From Callorhinchus milii (lineage: Eukaryota): a stretch of DNA of 64,000 nucleotides. The notes below the pieces were generated by a model. The model searched no databases and was not told the origin of the DNA. It saw only the letters and a list, made by a program, of their open reading frames with translations. Position 1 is the first letter of the stretch. Each line of letters begins with the position of its first letter. A program made the translations under genes and the position numbers. Positions 23,640 to 45,171 of this stretch are shown in pieces. The stretch lies in assembly GCF_018977255.1 (NCBI RefSeq), contig NW_024704742.1, positions 93,374,001 through 93,438,000 of the forward strand, given 5' to 3'.

Positions 23640-24730
23640 AGTGACCCAAACGGAGTTGAGAACAGAAGATGGCAAACATTTTAAATGACAACTTCCTGAA
23701 GGATTTTAACCAAGGAGGATATAAAGAGTATCTATCTTTGGGGGGTTGAAGTTTGCAAGACAGACTTTCGAGATGAGCTCAAGGGACTGAAAACCACAAA
23801 TACCCGAGAGATTTATAGTCCATGGTACTTAAAGAGATAAGGCAGAAGATTTGTGAATACTGACAGACGTTTAGAGTCCATCCATAAACAATGGTGAGGT
23901 TTTAACAGCCTGGAAACAAGCTAATGTGATTTCCATAAGCTGCCTTGTAAACATCATTTAATAACGATGACAGAGCCACACCTGGGAATTACAGCCCCAT
24001 TAATCTGACTGCCCCAATTGTTGGAAAACAAATGGAATCAATCATTAAAAGCAAAATGGAAGCTTACCTCTTTGGAAACAACCTAATAAATGACAACCAA
24101 CATGGAATCAGAAAGGATAGATCTTGCCTGATAACCTTCCAGGCTTGTTGAAGAGATAACATCTGAAATTGATCGTGGGAAACCATATGATGCAGTGGAT
24201 TTATACTTCCAAAAAGGACTTTGATAATGTATCACATTAGAGACTCTTACGTATTAATATCACTGAGGAGAACAAGGGCAATAAATGGACACAACTTGGT
24301 AACTGGCTGAAGGAAAGGAAGCAGTCATTAGGGAAGCCTGTCTAGAATAGGAAGGAAAGGGGATATTTTGAGTTACACTTCTCTTCAGGAGTCTGGAGTG
24401 GCTCACCCCCTATCCATGTCATTATTGTACTAGATATATAAACAGCTTTGATTTGCAGACTCCGTGCAAAGTAGTTACATTTCCAAGTCACACCAAAGTT
24501 GCAGAAACTGTGGATTCGGAGGAGGCAGTTAATATCTTAAAAAGAGAGCTTGACAGACTGATGAATGGATAATGAAGTATACTGCAGATTAAATGCAAGG
24601 TCCTGCCTGCAGGTAGCAATAATAATAGATGGTGCATGTACCCTATGAATGAACAAGAGGAAAGGAAGTTCAAAGAGACTTAAGAGTGTTGATTGATGCA
24701 TCACTCACTGTCTTCAAACAGAATGAAGCA
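23640..24730 (+). mobile_element. CR1 LINE RT remnant
   Basis: Decayed WKQANV, GNYSPINLT, NLINDNQHGIRKDRSCL and YDAVDLYFQK motifs with stops and frameshifts. Confidence 0.8.
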
Positions 24731-31000: not shown

Positions 31001-31672
31001 TAATTGCCAGGAATAAAAACCTGCTGCAGCTTCATATTAGCATTCTGCATGAATACATGGCACAGAAAATCCACCTGGGTCTAGATTTACTCTATTAATG
31101 TAACATTTCAGTGCATAGGGAATTTGGCTTATTCTTACATGCAGCCTCGGTTTTGAAGGTAGTCTTTTGTACATTCTTTTGAGAATGCAAGGATTATCAT
31201 ACTAGTTTACTATTTACAATCAATTACTCATAATGGAGGGTGGACAGTATTTAATATTTCCTGCCTCCCCCCCCCCAATTTCAAAGTGGTTTTCCTCTGG
31301 ACTAATTTTAAGTGTCTTGGTGCTATAAATGGGGGATGGTAGGGTGACTATTCTGGAAAGATGAGATCAAACGGTCAGAAGCTTCTCTTCATCCAGACTT
31401 TTCTTGCAATCATTGTGAATCACAAACTAATACACTGAATAGTTAAATTTTCTGGATTATTACAGTTTTTTTAAAAAATCTAAGTTTATTATATGCAATG
31501 TTCAAAGGAACTTTGGAAATTTTCACAGGTTACAAGAGATACAGTATTTCCAACATGACTGGATGCCTTGCATTTTGTGTCTCTGGCTGTGATCCGAAGC
31601 TGCGTGTCAGGCGTGTACTGCTGAAGCCTCGGGTCATCCAGAGCCTTCACTGTGTTGATGGAGGCCTTGGAA

Positions 31673-31852
31673 ATGTCATCAAAGGCTGCCCAAGTCCTGA
31701 AGATCACCAGAACCCCCAGGGATTAGCTGGACCGAGCTCCCACCATCACGATCAAGGCAGCTCAAGATTGCTTACTCGATGATAGCCATGGAAACAAAAT
31801 AGCTTTCCTAGCTTTGAATGGGGAGAGGAAACCAATCCTGGTTTTCGTCAGG
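31673..31852 (+). pseudogene. PRXL2C: PRXL2C exon 1 (MSSKAAQVLKITRTPRD*LDRAPTITIKAAQDCLLDDSHGNKIAFLALNGERKPILVFVR)
   Basis: Ends in the conserved VFVR with donor AGG|gtagga at 31853; in-frame ATG at 31673; in-frame TAG at 31724-31726. Confidence 0.75.
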
Positions 31853-32411
31853 GTAGGAGAGGCAGGCAAATGTTATTCATAACTCATCAGAACTTTTCCA
31901 GGTAGCACCGAGGCATGTGTATCCGGGACAGACGCTGTGCATTTCCACTGAAGTAAAACATATTTCTTTGTCAATTGGTAGACAAGTACTTGGACCCCAC
32001 TGGGAGAGTAAAATTGGGGGAGAGAGAAAAGAAAGTGGTGTTTTATATATATAATAATAATTGTAATCCTTGCATTTGATATAACATCCTATTATGTCAT
32101 TCTAACATCTCAAAGCAGGTCAAAGTATTTTACTGTAAAGTTTAGTGATTGTATGTTTGCAGGCGAAAGATTTGATTGCTTTTCCTTTAAGAAACATTGA
32201 GTTGCTTGGCCTGTTGCCTAAGAAAAAAGGACATCATTTGCAAGTAGCGCAAAAAAGTACTGACAGCAAAAAGCTTTTGCCAAGGATCCCATATCGAAAT
32301 TAAATGTCATTGCACATTAAAAAAAAACTGCAGTACTGGTCCATCTTGATAAGACATTCATTTGTTAACTTATTTTCTTTTGTTATAAAAATATCTCTAC
32401 TGTTTTTCCAG

Positions 32412-32485
32412 CATTTTCTGTGCTATACCTGCAAAGAATATAATATGTGGAGGATTTGGCAAAAGTCCCACAAAAATATCTAACG
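32412..32485 (+). pseudogene. PRXL2C: PRXL2C exon 2 (HFLCYTCKEY[+5 nt]VEDLAKVPQKYLT), CxxC exon, frameshifted
   Basis: Acceptor tttttccag, donor ACG|gtaagc. Length 74 nt = 69 + 5. As written it reads into TAA at 32481-32483. Confidence 0.9.
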
Positions 32486-33909
32486 GTAAGCATCAAATTC
32501 ACTTGGGTATGTTGCGATTTCCCTAAGGTTGTATGTCATTTGTTATAAATATTTTATTATAAACACACCTTGAAATCAAGGTTATTGTGTATCTGAGCTT
32601 TCTGATTACACGCTGCTTTTCTAAGGCTGCACTGAATTATCCATCAGTCCCCAGACAATATTGGAGAGGAGCTCGAAATTCTCCAGGGATAAGAATATAC
32701 AATTCACAAATACTTTCTGCAATCTTGAAGATCAGGTTACAAGATCATTCAAATGCAATTAAATTGAGGTTAAAAGCAATTTCCTGTTGTCTGCTTCCAT
32801 CATTCTCCAATGGAAAAAANTCTCTCTGGAAATAAAAGAGGCAAGAAGCTGGATAGTTCATTATAGCCAAAAGCACACAGAGCAGTCATCCTTACACTGA
32901 TTATCATCTGCTTTGACAAAGATCTAGGTGTTGACAAACAAGAGATTATGTGGTTAAATATTGTCTTTTGAGTTCAACTCAAAAAGGAGCAAAAAGGTCA
33001 AATGTTTTTTAACTCTGGTCGTGGACATGTAAGAGGAGAACACTGAACTAACCTCAGTTGATCTAAATTGGGTAATTTTATGTTTGAAATACCTAGACGT
33101 TGCTAATTTCTTATCAGTGTAGTTTGGGGTCAATCACTCTCTTTAAACGTGTGCACCACATGTACAAATAAAGAAAAACTCTTGAGAATCTGCAGATATG
33201 ACTAAAACACATACAACCACATTAAGCTAGGTGGTAGGCTGAATATAACTATTTTATTGAAGTATTTTATGGAAAGAATAGAAGTATTTTTTTCGTGTAT
33301 TAGTTTGCATGTTTGGTGGGAGTAGTACCTGAGATATGTTGGTTGTTATATGTTTCATGATAAAAAATTTGGGGCTCAATATTTTTTGGGTGCAAAATGA
33401 AAATTGTTTGACATGATGAGTTGATACCACTAGAAGTAGTAGTGTTTTATAGAAGGAATAGAAGTTTTTTTTAGAAGTATTACCGTGGTTATCCAATGAG
33501 AATTTCTGATCTCTGGTGGATAAGTAGCGGACATAAGAAAATATGCATGTCCTTTGAGGTAGTATGCAGGAGGGGGGTGGTGGGTGGTGTGGGGGGAAGA
33601 GGTAGCAAGGGGAATGGAAAAACTGCCAATAATAAATTTAAAGGCTTAGATTTAGGATCAATACTCTTTTGAAATGCCACCATTTACTTATGTCAGTACA
33701 GTCTCAGGTTTCCCTTGTGTGCCAAATGTCACAATAATTTTATACCTCATTTATTGCTGCTCATTTCTAACGACCTCTACAGCAGTGACTAATCCTCTTA
33801 GACTTCACACTGTTGAATTTGCCCTCGTTTGCAAGATATCGTAGGTTCAAAATGTCACCAGTACTGCATTAATTCACAATTACCCAATGATTTACTTTGT
33901 TTTTTGAAG

Positions 33910-33963
33910 GATGCTGGTGTCAGACTAATAGTTATTGGACAGTGCACTTATCATCATATTCAG
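33910..33963 (+). pseudogene. PRXL2C: PRXL2C exon 3 (DAGVRLIVIGQCTYHHIQ)
   Basis: Acceptor tttttgaag, donor CAG|gtatgt, 54 nt, phase 0-0. Confidence 0.9.
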
Positions 33964-34982
33964 GTATGTGTGTCTTTGATTATTCCCTTAATCAGCTCAA
34001 CGTCTTTAAAAGGCAAGTTTTTGTGAAGGATATTACTGCACGCTTGCTCCAGGACTCCGTTGTCTGAATGTACTTCGGGAGTCGGATAACCATACAGTGG
34101 TTCTTGAAATACTTAGAATAAGAGAATTTTATAGCACTGCAGGAGGCCATTTGGCCCATCATACCTGTGTCAGCTTTTAGAAAGAGCTATCCAATTAGTC
34201 CCACTCCCCATTCTTTCCCCATACCATTGCAATTTTTTTCTTTTCAAGTAAATATCCAATTCACTTTTGAAAGTTATTATTGAATCTTAGGTTGTTAAAC
34301 GTTCATGATGAAGAATTTAGGACTCAGTATTTTTTGGGGTGTAGAGCGAAAATTCATTTATCCAATGTTTGTTTATATCATTAGAATTAAAGCCACTACA
34401 GGTTATAGCCAAGAAGAAATCATAGAAAATACAGCACAGAAGGAAGCCATTCAGACTCTGTACATGCCACCTCCTCTTCTCAAGCTATCTACTTTAATCC
34501 CAATTCTCTTTTCCTTACGTATTTATTCTGTTTTCTTTCAAATGCTGTTAAAAAGGAATTAGAAAACATTTAAAAAGCAAAACAAAATATTGAGAGGATT
34601 AGAGAATGGACTAGATAATGGAACTGAATAGATGGCTCTTTCAGAAAGCTAGCACAGACATGCGAGGCCAGAAGGCCATCTTCCTTGCTATAAATTCTAT
34701 GCTTCTATGAGTTTAGGATCATCAGACATTTGTGGTAAGGCATTCCACGTTCTAAATTGTCTTGAGTTTTAAAAAAATCGTCTAACCTCTTCCTTCTATT
34801 AGGGGGAATATTAGCTATCGTTTTTAAAAGTACTCTCTAGTTCAGCTAAAGACTGGGATAAATCCCATGTAAAAACCCTAATGTAATCAGTTTTTGATCA
34901 GGCTTTCAACCTGAAAAAAACATATTCAGTCACAATAAAATGTTCAAAAACTATTAAATTGTATAATTTCCCTGCTCTTTAG

Positions 34983-35088
34983 AGTTTCTGTTCACAAATG
35001 AGATACAATCATAACATTTATGTCTATCCAAGCAGACAGATTTATAAGGGACTGGGAATGAAACAAGGAGAAATATTTCACCGAGAAG
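34983..35088 (+). pseudogene. PRXL2C: PRXL2C exon 4 (SFCSQMRYNHNIYVYPSRQIYKGLGMKQGEIFHRE)
   Basis: Acceptor ctctttag, donor AAG|gtagaa, 106 nt; resembles the recalled PFCKLTGYSHEIYVDPEREIYKRLGMKRGE. Confidence 0.85.
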
Positions 35089-35174
35089 GTAGAATATTAT
35101 TTTTTGCTCTGTTTCTTGGAAGTTTGCTGTGAGAGAATCTCACTGCAGTATTATTTATTCCCCTCCCCTATTTT

Positions 35175-35562
35175 GTTTGATTTCAAGATCCTCACACTCG
35201 TCTTGAAATCCCTTCATGACCTGGCACCTTCCTACTTCTCCGACTAGCTTACTTCCCAATTCACTTCACGTTGCTTCTGTTCAACTGGCTCCAGGCTCCT
35301 GCTCGTCCCTTGTGCTTTCCGTTCCATCGGTATCTGCGCTTTCAACCACTATGCCCCGAAACTCTGGAACATTCTCCATCAATCCCTTTGCCTTGCTCCA
35401 ATCTCCCCCAGCTTAATGTTGCATCTGTTGACTTTTCCCTTCGACCATGCCTACGGTCACCTCCCCCCTCCCGATGGCTCGGCATCATGCTCTGCCACTA
35501 TTAAATGCTCTGGGACGCTACCCTGTGTGAGCGGCACTGTATAAATCCAAGTTGTTGTTGTA
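35175..35562 (+). mobile_element. L2 LINE 3' end
   Basis: FKILTLVLKSLHDLAPSY-like peptide, then a (TTG)n tail. Confidence 0.7.
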
Positions 35563-37229
35563 GTTCTGGTCTGCACTGCCTGAGCCTCTATGGCATCTGT
35601 TTGCCCAGTGACACTCTGAATTGACCACTTGGAGGTGCACACTTGTTGCATGGTGATGATGATGACTCTTTGCTTGACTTCCCCTTCCTTTGCTGTGAAC
35701 CTCCCTCACAGCACTTCCCCACAATAAAGTAGCTGGAGCAAGTTCCAGTTCACCTCCCACTCCCAATCACCACCACTACACACTGGTGTGCCTGCACTAT
35801 GCCACAGTGCTGCTATGTTTCATCCACTTTCAATTTGTGATATTCAATAAACTACTGTATTACTAATGAATGCTTCAAAAAAAATCTGTAATATGACTTC
35901 AGAGTTAAAGACAGTAGTAAAGCATCCAAAGCAGAGAAACCAAGGTGCCCTGGGTCTTAAAATATTGACCTATGGAGATAGATGAAGGAAGCTTAGTCCG
36001 TTTTCCTTGAGAAAAAAGATGGAAAAGAGTAGGATCTGAATCTTTTGGGGAAAACAAATTCTTCCTCTGAATTTTCTTTCCTTTCAGGGGATGTAATTTT
36101 ATGGGTATTTACAACCTCCTGTCACCTCACTCAATCGAACAGTCCTATGTGTGAGCCGAGACAGAGATGTTTAGCAAGATGCTCCAGCATGGGTACCATC
36201 AGAGTCAAGGTGCTGCTCACTCTCCCAGGGGTCGTTGGATAATGACAACATGCAGGGATGGTGACTGGTTTTATTCCCATCCTCATGCAAGCTTTCCAAA
36301 ATAGTCTTGTACTTTCAACATTTCCCCTCCCCACTCCTCCCCCCACCACCACCACCAATACTCATCTGGCTGAGATCAGTTAATTGAGCAAAGAGCAATG
36401 TTTAAATGTTGCACCCTCCTGAACTGCAGCTCTACACTACACAATAAAGTGCATTTATGTATTGTTCCATCCACGAGGTTAGAGAAAACTGATTTTAAAT
36501 CAATGGCTCAAAAACAGGTTCAGTGAATTGTCTCTATTTGGAAATGTGTGGAGACAACACTTTTTAAACATCTTAATGTTTAATGCATTGCTGATGTATT
36601 ACATGGGCTTTTATAGCATGCAATATGTATTGCTTATGACTACCTAAATGCTCAAAATTGCATTGCTTCTTTAATAGCTCAGTTATGAAAGGCACTAATC
36701 TCTGTCAAAGTGAACCATGCAAAGCTGAAAGGTCCTTTTAAGCTTGGTTACCTCATCTTAGCTGAGGCAGCTGTAGGAGTGCTACAATTAGCCTCGGTGC
36801 CCATGAGCTAACAGGAAAGATTCAGGCAGGGTTCCCACTCTTGTATCCATGGATGGACAGGATTGAGCTTGGCTGTAATGCGAGATCAAACAATCTGCTG
36901 ATCACCACTGCCTAGCCTCAAACATAATCTATGGGCAAATGGACAAGATGTTGGAGAGAGCTCAGCATCCTTAAAACTGTATGACAGGTCACTTTCTTGT
37001 ATAGAGAAGGCAAGAAAATTGGGACAATAATAGATTCTAAATATGCAAAGAAACATTGGGGAAAAATGCTTCTTTCTCCTCCCTTAACATATTTAGAATC
37101 ATTGAATAGAGCTTTTCATATGCTGTTTCATGCACTTTCACATATGTTCTGTAGTTCACAATTTCACAAAGGTGTTACTGACAATGAGCGAATCTGCTAT
37201 TCAGTGATGTTTTACTTTCTTTTTATCAG

Positions 37230-37346
37230 TTAGGAGTCTCCATGTCAAATCAAACTTTCTGAGCATTTGGCGAGCCATGAACAGCCCAGCATTTGACTTT
37301 CAGGGTGACGCAGCTCAGCAAGGTGGAGCTTTGATCGTAGGCCCCG
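37230..37346 (+). pseudogene. PRXL2C: PRXL2C exon 5 (VRSLHVKSNFLSIWRAMNSPAFDFQGDAAQQGGALIVGP-G)
   Basis: Acceptor ttttatcag, 117 nt; the expected donor position reads gggagc instead of gtgagc. Confidence 0.88.
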
Positions 37347-37494
37347 GGGAGCGAGGTTTTGTTCTACAGGAGTTTCATTGGAGTTTTTTTGATGTCATGG
37401 TGTTTAGTGCATGGAAAAAAATCATTTTGATTGTGATGCAAAGAAACATTGGGAAAAAATGTTTCTTTCTCCTCCCTGAACATATTTAGAATCA

Positions 37495-37815
37495 TTATAA
37501 TAATAATAATAATAATCCTTGCATTTGATATAGCGCTTTTCACGTCGGGAGGACGTCCCAAAGCGCTTCATAGAACACACTGTAAAGTGAATTGACTGTA
37601 TATTTGTGGGCGAACGCGGCAGCCAATTGCGCACAGCAGTGTCCCACAAACAGTCGTAGATTGAAAATGACCAATTTATTATTGTTTTTGGTTTTGGAGG
37701 GATTATTATTAGGCGTGTGGAGTAAGGAAACTTGCCCAAGGTTTCGCCCTGCCTGGAATTGAACTCAGGTCTCTCACTTGCAAAGCGAGTGCTCTAACCA
37801 CTGAGCTACAGGACT
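37495..37815 (-). mobile_element. Young SINE, short subfamily, in PRXL2C intron 5
   Basis: Near-consensus copy. Confidence 0.9.
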
Positions 37816-38258
37816 ACAGGGCTACAGAACAATTTGCCATTATTTCCACATCATCTTCATGGTCAGGGGTCGCTCTAGCTATAGGCTCTAGCTGTCATCA
37901 GCAGTGCTCTGGAATACTGCAGACCCGCCGGGCTCGGAAACTGGATTACCCAGACTGTTACAGAGGGATGGCTTGATTCTGACATTCCATTGCCAAACAT
38001 GTCACCTTGGAGCCAGTTCAGCTTCAAGGAGACCTCGCTTACTTCCCCGCCAAGGAGGATAGTCACTAGTTGGTCATTCAACATCCAACAAGTCCGGGTT
38101 CGTGAGTTTTTTTTCTAAAGAAAAGGCGTTTTACGGTGAATTAATTAATGTAAATGTGAAGCGTTTGATGTTTCAGTGAAATTTGTATTTTATCTGATAG
38201 GAATCTATATTATTGATATATTATTATAATAAACATTATTTATTCTTATTTCTTAAAG

Positions 38259-38386
38259 GGGATGAAGTTCACTTTGGTCATCTAGATATGAATAAGCTTG
38301 ATCACACACCCATCAACTTCGTGCTGCAACTGGCCGGTGTAACAACAGTGGACTTCAGAGCTCAGGCACAAACCATTGACCTTTGA
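38259..38386 (+). pseudogene. PRXL2C: PRXL2C exon 6 (G-DEVHFGHLDMNKLDHTPINFVLQLAGVTTVDFRAQAQTIDL*)
   Basis: Acceptor tttcttaaag, phase 1, TGA at 38384-38386. Confidence 0.88.
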
Positions 38387-44801: not shown

Positions 44802-44955
44802 ATGAAGAGGAAAAACGAGAAGCGCAGGGGCTGTGTGCCCAAGCGGCGCTCCCTCAGCAGCAGCCCCGGCCCCGGCCCCGGCCCCGGGCAGGGACAGGGA
44901 CAGGGAGAGGGGCAGCTGCCGGCCCCCGGCACTGATGTCTACAGCAGAGTGCAAG
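44802..44955 (+). CDS. CDC14B: Dual-specificity phosphatase CDC14B, first coding exon (MKRKNEKRRGCVPKRRSLSSSPGPGPGPGQGQGQGEGQLPAPGTDVYSRVQ, phase 1)
   Basis: gccATG in a CpG island; donor CAAG|gtgaga. MKRK.E.R...RR.SS.SPG...DVY matches the recalled CDC14B N-terminus. Same strand as and downstream of PRXL2C, as recalled for human. No catalytic exons were seen in the window. Confidence 0.78.
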
Positions 44956-45171
44956 GTGAGAGAGAGAGAGAGAGAGGGAGGGAGGGAGAGAGGGGAGAGG
45001 GGCAGCTCCCCCCCCCCCCTCACTGCCTGCCCACCTGCCCACCTGCCCGCTCGGCTGGCACGAGAGGCATTGCCAGCAGCGCCTGGCAGCGCTCCAGCAA
45101 TGCACGGTCCCGCCTCCCCACTCCTCAGGTTATTGCCGTTGGCAATTGCCGGTGAAGTGCAAACATTTTGC

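What the first reader, a model, noticed from the sequence alone, without database searches (positions are those of the whole stretch)
31673..38386. PRXL2C (AAED1) appears to be a unitary pseudogene: gene loss in place
Seen: all six exons with introns, plus three independent disabling changes (TAG in exon 1, 5-bp frameshift in exon 2, GG donor after exon 5) and radical substitutions (LTGY>QMRY, VDP>VYP, SPH>SLH against the recalled human protein). Exon 1 has no CpG island, unlike CDC14B. Known from recall: PRXL2C is a conserved thioredoxin-like CxxC gene upstream of CDC14B. Inference: lineage-specific loss of the orthologue, not a retrocopy. Several lesions of different types argue against a single assembly error.
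Basis: partly seen in the sequence, partly recalled or inferred. Interest (0 to 1): 0.75.

Follow-up and report, generated by a model that had tools for sequence, protein, structure and literature searches.

The report
Dead PRXL2C gene in elephant shark
The elephant shark's copy of the redox gene PRXL2C (AAED1) keeps all six exons but carries a premature stop and a frameshift that other sequenced samples share, so this fish has likely lost a gene that most vertebrates keep, and a related fish likely lost it too by a different break.

Summary
Confirmed. Exons 3-6 match database PRXL2C/AAED1 models of Callorhinchus milii; RefSeq labels its model LOW QUALITY PROTEIN. Contigs of public runs carry the stop (4 of 5 runs, one undetermined) and the frameshift (5 of 5), so these are not assembly errors. 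No second copy of exons 1-2 was laid at 80% likeness in two genome-sized runs. Corrections: the GG donor has an in-frame cryptic bypass, and SPH>SLH also occurs in an intact shark protein. New: a relative (organism B, about 90% identical DNA) lacks the stop, but one of its contigs joins across exon 2, suggesting a separate loss. No carpet, mackerel or ground shark protein was among the top 120 hits (untested lead). CDC14B synteny rests on recall; expression is unknown. Three literature searches and the scan's own notes showed no report of this loss. An ordinary kind of event in a poorly studied gene.

The parts
31673..31852 (+). Exon 1 of the PRXL2C pseudogene (60 codons from the ATG aligned to the Heptranchias start; another in-frame ATG at 31658)
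   Evidence: tblastn E 5e-17 to 2e-10 with 5 elasmobranch proteins; GT donor at 31853
31724..31726 (+). Premature TAG, codon 18; Gln in elasmobranchs and in organism B
   Evidence: present in runs X1, X3, X4, X5
32412..32485 (+). Exon 2 with the CxxC motif; 74 nt, out of frame by the duplication
32434..32443 (+). Tandem AATAT AATAT: 5-nt duplication causing a frameshift, stop at the end of exon 2
   Evidence: no 5-nt gap in the contigs of X1-X5
33910..33963 (+). Exon 3; carries a C/S polymorphism at 33944
34983..35088 (+). Exon 4; carries T>M, E>N and D>Y at near-invariant columns and the first ATG of the longest remaining ORF (111-114 aa, no CxxC)
   Evidence: weak AhpC-TSA_2 hit E 0.022
37230..37346 (+). 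Exon 5, with an in-frame deletion of 5 codons (near 37260) that removes an invariant Gly
   Evidence: no gap in the contigs of X1-X4
37347..37357 (+). GG in place of the GT donor (37347-37348); cryptic in-frame GT donor at 37356-37357
   Evidence: GG in X1 and X3; database models use the cryptic site
38259..38386 (+). Exon 6 to the stop codon
   Evidence: 95% identical to the C. milii PRXL2C model; tblastn E 1e-16
32327..32486 (+). Segment (end of intron 1 plus all of exon 2) skipped by a contig of the relative, organism B, run X12
   Evidence: table 5: joint 32326>32487, 44 letters on the shorter side, depth 14.6; depth 0 at 32432-32463
44802..44956 (+). CpG-island first exon of the downstream gene, CDC14B by recall only
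   Evidence: not confirmed; human PRXL2C and CDC14B are neighbours (PMC8251932, table passage)

Best explanation
This is the elephant shark's PRXL2C (AAED1, SELENOU2) gene, broken in place by a stop codon in exon 1 and a frameshift in exon 2, and it is likely the only copy, so the species has likely lost this thioredoxin-like CxxC protein. Shown: translation from the first ATG ends after 17-22 codons. In four splice models no ATG opens a frame that holds both the CxxC motif and the C-terminal half; the longest product is 111-114 aa from exon 4, without CxxC. Inferred: selection was relaxed, point mutation and slippage (stop, 5-nt duplication, donor change, 15-nt deletion) accumulated, and any transcript would be a nonsense-decay target. 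Inferred with less confidence: inactivation happened part-way along this lineage after it split from organism B, which lost exon 2 separately.
For: Lesions. Not assembly error: stop in X1, X3, X4, X5; duplication in X1-X5; deletion in X1-X4; GG in X1, X3. Single copy: depth equal to one contig over exons 1-2 in X4 and X5 at 80% likeness; one C. milii cluster only. Orthology: groups with elasmobranchs. Relaxed constraint: 10 substitutions plus 1 gap in 98 columns at least 90% conserved, against median 1 and maximum 8 in 119 orthologues; exon 1 against organism B has 12 non-synonymous and 2 synonymous differences, which rejects omega 0.3 (P about 0.002) but not omega 1; 2 of 2 listed variants inside the six exons change the residue, one inside CxxC. 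Timing: 2 coding indels against 9.5 expected if neutral since the split; B lacks the stop.
Against: The assembly could not be searched, so a copy under 80% alike is not excluded. One search showed about double depth at 32425 in X2-X4, unexplained and not reproduced for X4. Protein acceleration is modest: branch 0.33 against 0.15-0.18 in three sharks but 0.25-0.35 in seven batoids; 4 of 15 relative-rate tests reach P<0.05, none against batoids. Exon 1 is fast-evolving even in intact proteins, which weakens the omega test. The conserved-column count favours the bird-rich set that defined it. The timing estimate rests on 4 intron indels. X2-X5 come from one study and X1 may be the assembly's own sample.
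Confidence: 0.9

Rival explanations
1. Assembly or sequencing errors in an intact gene, as the database treatment implies (RefSeq corrects the model and labels it LOW QUALITY PROTEIN).
For: RefSeq and UniProt list the locus as protein-coding; the CxxC motif and most of exons 2, 5 and 6 are well conserved.
Against: Contigs of five samples carry the duplication and four carry the stop. Four lesions of four types; the database models skip or patch them.
Confidence: 0.01
2. A dead duplicate: a working PRXL2C lies elsewhere in the genome.
For: No whole-genome search was possible; doubled depth at 32425 in three runs; the neighbour's identity as CDC14B is not tool-confirmed.
Against: Single-contig depth across exons 1-2 at 80% likeness in two genome-sized runs; no second C. 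milii cluster among the top 120 hits; no second copy in the window.
Confidence: 0.05
3. The gene still makes a useful truncated product (111-114 aa from the exon 4 ATG) or a functional RNA.
For: Exons 4-6 stay in one frame, with a cryptic donor that bypasses the GG site; four UniProt models describe such C-terminal products.
Against: It lacks the CxxC motif and the first half of the fold, and exons 4-5 carry the most damaging changes (T>M, D>Y, P>A, 5-codon deletion), the opposite of what continued selection predicts.
Confidence: 0.04
4. On timing only: the gene was already inactive in the common ancestor of this species and organism B, and the visible lesions are later decay.
For: Exon 1 diverged from B about as fast as intron 1 (14 of 159 against 17 of 137, P 0.35) with omega near 2; B has its own change at an Arg invariant in 10 elasmobranchs; stop and splice counts fit neutrality over the whole branch.
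Against: No shared lesion in exons 1-2; B keeps the elasmobranch residue at five sites where the window departs; only 2 coding indels against 9.5 expected. Exons 3-6 of B were not examined.
Confidence: 0.3

Closest known systems
Vertebrate PRXL2C / AAED1 / C9orf21 / SELENOU2 (Pfam AhpC-TSA_2, PF13911), e.g. Heptranchias XP_067838318.1, Heterodontus XP_067885117.1, Pristis XP_051876596.1
   Same: Collinear six-part match, CxxC motif, 64-69% identity of the database model to five elasmobranch proteins; tree position beside elasmobranchs.
   Different: Stop, frameshift, donor change and 5-codon deletion; none of 150 measured orthologues has the deletion.
C. milii database models XP_007898231.1 (LOW QUALITY PROTEIN) and UniProt A0A4W3IG96, A0A4W3IIF4, A0A4W3IGA1, A0A4W3J101
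   Same: Same locus: exons 4-6 identical apart from junctions.
   Different: They present it as coding: RefSeq starts after the stop and patches the frameshift; the four UniProt models lack exons 1-2 and the CxxC motif.
Unitary pseudogenes (definition in PMC2864566, abstract start seen); opsin pseudogenes of Chimaera phantasma (PMC12952989, passages)
   Same: Unprocessed, disabled gene without a working counterpart; chimaera lineages are known to lose single genes this way.
   Different: Nothing in kind. The gene concerned is new to the searches run.
PRXL2B / prostamide-prostaglandin F synthase (PDB 9us9, 9usa)
   Same: Nearest solved relative of intact shark PRXL2C, E 3.6e-9; same SELENOU family (10.1101/2025.05.29.656587, section 13).
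   Different: A paralogue that split before vertebrates; whether it compensates in the elephant shark was not tested.

Membership tests
PRXL2C/AAED1 orthologues | Best hits and tree position with PRXL2C rather than PRXL2A/B | tested here: met
   All named top hits are PRXL2C/AAED1; sister to elasmobranch PRXL2C in a 23-sequence tree without PRXL2A/B rows
PRXL2C/AAED1 orthologues | AhpC-TSA_2 domain with CxxC | tested here: met
   PF13911 E 1e-16 on the database model; CxxC readable in exon 2
PRXL2C/AAED1 orthologues | Synteny with CDC14B | tested here: inconclusive
   Only a first exon lies in the window; no tool named it; human adjacency from PMC8251932
Unitary pseudogene | Disabling lesions that are real and not assembly errors | tested here: met
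Unitary pseudogene | Unprocessed (introns kept) | tested here: met
   five introns, AG acceptors, four GT donors
Unitary pseudogene | No working copy elsewhere in the genome | tested here: inconclusive
   Supported; assembly not available
Unitary pseudogene | Intact orthologue in outgroups | tested here: met
   Full-length proteins in 10 elasmobranch genera and many bony vertebrates
Unitary pseudogene | dN/dS near 1 | tested here: inconclusive
   Exon 1 only, 14 differences, ratio 1.9-2.5, not different from 1; exon 1 is weakly constrained anyway
Processed pseudogene (retrocopy) | Introns removed | tested here: not met
Selenoprotein (Sec form of SELENOU2) | In-frame TGA at the redox motif | tested here: not met
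   The stop is TAG at a Gln position; both CxxC codons are Cys

The most novel reading that the evidence does not exclude
[quoted passage not shown] The retained and lost lineages would form a natural contrast for finding what this poorly understood redox protein does.
Probability: 0.3. Interest if true: 0.5.

Novelty: new member of a known kind. Interest (0 to 1): 0.32.

Why it matters
It corrects an annotation: public databases count this locus as a protein, so gene-family surveys would score PRXL2C as present in the main chimaera reference genome. It shows that a vertebrate lives without a protein linked in humans to HIF-1-mediated glycolysis (PMC12597720, passages) and proposed as an ADHD candidate gene (PMC7473839, passages). 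If the second and third losses hold, the pattern gives a comparative handle on a gene whose substrate is, to my knowledge, unknown. As a single loss of a little-studied gene it is ordinary.

Tried and rejected
Whole-genome search: no genome held. Expression: no RNA holder listed; the one guessed RNA run, X11, covered no part of exons 1-2; neither says anything about expression. CDC14B confirmation failed: 8 recalled short motifs found no further exon; the Atlas gave no usable hit; the representative search gave 2 hits, both on the glycine/proline-rich stretch of the query; PDB gave chance hits. Upstream neighbour: Pfam scan of 150 of 179 stop-to-stop frames of 55 aa or more upstream (1-25545) found nothing above a curated cut-off; the other 29 and the 166 downstream were not scanned. 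Selenocysteine read-through rejected (TAG, at a Gln site). SPH>SLH rejected as evidence of decay. GG donor rejected as an independent knockout. Not in print, as far as searched: PRXL2C/AAED1/C9orf21/SelU2 terms; loss in chimaeras; listings only, except the papers cited. The selenoprotein survey (section 13 and passages read) does not mention loss of SELENOU2, but its supplementary figures S1 and S17 could not be seen; the one supplementary file held was cut when stored and gave no SELENOU2 or PRXL2C hit, so it may bear on novelty.
Full report
Identity of the locus. Exon 6 found one protein among 4 candidates, Callorhinchus milii peroxiredoxin-like 2C, at 95%. Its cluster has 5 members, all C. 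milii: four UniProt models of 135-158 aa and RefSeq XP_007898231.1, labelled LOW QUALITY PROTEIN. Exons 4-6 of the window match these models apart from junctions, so the window is elephant shark DNA by sequence match. The four UniProt models lack exons 1-2. The RefSeq model starts after the stop and patches the frameshift. No whole genome was held.

Anatomy. Six exons lie at 31673-31852, 32412-32485, 33910-33963, 34983-35088, 37230-37346 and 38259-38386. tblastn with 8 orthologues recovers them in order and finds no second copy in the window. There are four lesions. (a) TAG at codon 18, where 10 of 10 elasmobranchs have Gln. (b) A tandem AATAT two codons after the CxxC motif, which shifts the frame to a stop at the end of exon 2. 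(c) GG instead of GT after exon 5; a GT 9 nt downstream keeps the frame, and all five database models use it with an acceptor 9 nt into exon 6, so this change need not disable by itself. Whether RNA supports that junction is unknown. In four splice models the first ATGs give 17-22 aa, and the longest ORF is 111-114 aa from exon 4, without CxxC.

Are the lesions real? Public runs hold the stretch. I laid 7 of the 24 listed. The stop is present in X1 and X3 (contigs with no unexplained difference) and in X4 and X5 (row 31724); X2 covers it but has two unlisted differences in that contig. The duplication is present in X1-X5, with no 5-nt gap in either indel table. The exon 5 deletion is present in X1-X4. 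X2-X5 are four samples of one study, differ from the window at other sites, and so are not its source; X1 may be. All are contigs, not raw reads.

Is it the only copy? At 80% likeness, depth over exons 1 and 2 equals that of a single contig in X4 (963 million letters) and X5 (886 million). Two protein searches list no second C. milii cluster in their top 120 of 398 and 539 hits. Against this, one search showed about twice the contig depth at 32425 in X2-X4; one search did not reproduce this for X4 and I cannot explain it. In human, PRXL2C neighbours CDC14B (PMC8251932, table passage). The CpG-island exon at 44802 resembles the CDC14B start by recall only; four checks failed to name it.

Relaxed selection. 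In 98 columns at least 90% conserved among 119 orthologues the read-through has 10 substitutions and 1 gap; the others have median 1 and maximum 8, the five elasmobranchs 4-8. T>M and D>Y in exon 4 and the deleted Gly hit invariant columns. P>L (SLH) is shared with intact Heptranchias and carries no weight. On a fixed tree the branch is 0.33, against 0.15-0.18 for three sharks and 0.25-0.35 for seven batoids. All 15 relative-rate counts lean the same way, 4 reach P<0.05, none against batoids. C. milii proteins are reported as the slowest evolving among vertebrates (PMC3964593, passages), so a long branch is unexpected, but the excess is modest. The two listed variants inside the exons both change the residue: C/S at 33944 (X2-X4) and Y/S inside the CxxC motif at 32425 (X4); none of 145 matched orthologues has Ser there. 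The variant table was cut (46 rows unseen).

A relative. Run X12 (organism B, not identified) holds the orthologous DNA at about 90% identity through exon 1 and intron 1; I infer another chimaera. It has a Gln codon at position 18 and no exon 1 indel. One contig (452 letters, depth 14.6, like the exon 1 contig at 15.3) joins 32326 to 32487, skipping all of exon 2, and nothing is laid on 32432-32463. The tool marks the letters between as not known; by the record's length at most 146 could lie there, fewer than the 160 skipped, and an exon at about 90% identity should have been laid. I put the loss of exon 2 in B at about 0.7: one contig, one run. Between the window and B, exon 1 codons 8-60 show 12 non-synonymous (one the stop) and 2 synonymous listed differences, ratio 1.9-2.5, rejecting omega 0.3 but not 1; exon and intron divergence do not differ (14 of 159, 17 of 137). 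Codons 1-7 were left out because a repeat contig overlays them, and 9 of that contig's 45 differences were not listed. Exon 1 evolves fast even in intact proteins, so this test is lenient. B keeps the elasmobranch residue at five sites where the window departs and departs itself at four, one invariant.

Timing. If the window's branch had been neutral since the split from B, about 3.1 stop or splice hits and 9.5 indels are expected; 2 and 2 are seen, implying a neutral fraction of 0.65 (0.08-2.35) or 0.21 (0.03-0.76). The indel rate rests on 4 events. This, and the lack of a shared lesion in exons 1-2, favours separate losses over one ancestral loss, perhaps 2 to 1. Exons 3-6 of B were not examined. 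If B belongs to another chimaera family the split would be about 187 million years old (PMC12952989, passage on Chimaera phantasma); B's identity is not known.

Other sharks. With Heterodontus as query, the elasmobranch hits are Heterodontus, Heptranchias, Pristiophorus and seven batoid genera. No carpet, mackerel or ground shark appears in the top 120, although close relatives should rank first and, by recall, several have annotated genomes. I did not test whether the collection holds those proteomes. This is a lead only.

Function and comparison. [quoted passage not shown] The nearest solved relative is prostamide/prostaglandin F synthase. Human reports link it to HIF-1-mediated glycolysis (PMC12597720, passages) and ADHD (PMC7473839, passages). 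Why it became dispensable is not shown; redundancy with PRXL2A/B is a guess. Expression is unknown. No report of this loss turned up, nor in the scan's notes; supplementary figures of the selenoprotein survey were not visible. The scan's notes list other dead genes in this genome; I did not check them.

Verdict. Observation confirmed, interpretation supported with refinements. A real, probably unitary pseudogene that databases still carry as coding: a new member of a known kind, interest 0.32, higher if the repeated losses hold.

Noticed in passing
window:32327-32486 (run X12, organism B): A contig of a related species joins across exon 2, suggesting a separate inactivation of the same gene; that species has no stop at codon 18.
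   Followed up: partly
protein search: No PRXL2C from carpet, mackerel or ground sharks among the top 120 hits with a horn shark query; possible further loss or a database gap.
   Followed up: no
window:30043-30057: A short ATG-led piece with a strong donor codes the three residues that begin the RefSeq model and could splice into exon 1 after the stop; RNA support unknown.
   Followed up: partly
window:31932-31998: 67-bp deletion polymorphism in intron 1 in run X4.
   Followed up: no
window:32425: About double contig depth in X2-X4, not reproduced for X4; unexplained. X4 also carries a Tyr-to-Ser variant inside the CxxC motif here.
   Followed up: partly
window:37484-37815 and 32050-32170: Very high-copy repeats, SINE-like by recall, in introns 5 and 1.
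   Followed up: no
window:41635-43110 and 23951-24148: Decayed retroelement-like coding pieces: the first judged by eye from translations, the second with a weak RVT_1 hit, E 0.007.
   Followed up: no
window:44020-44530: Long GT/GA-rich simple repeat just upstream of the CpG island of the downstream gene.
   Followed up: no
window:1-25545: No Pfam domain above cut-off in 150 long stop-free frames; no upstream neighbour gene identified.
   Followed up: partly
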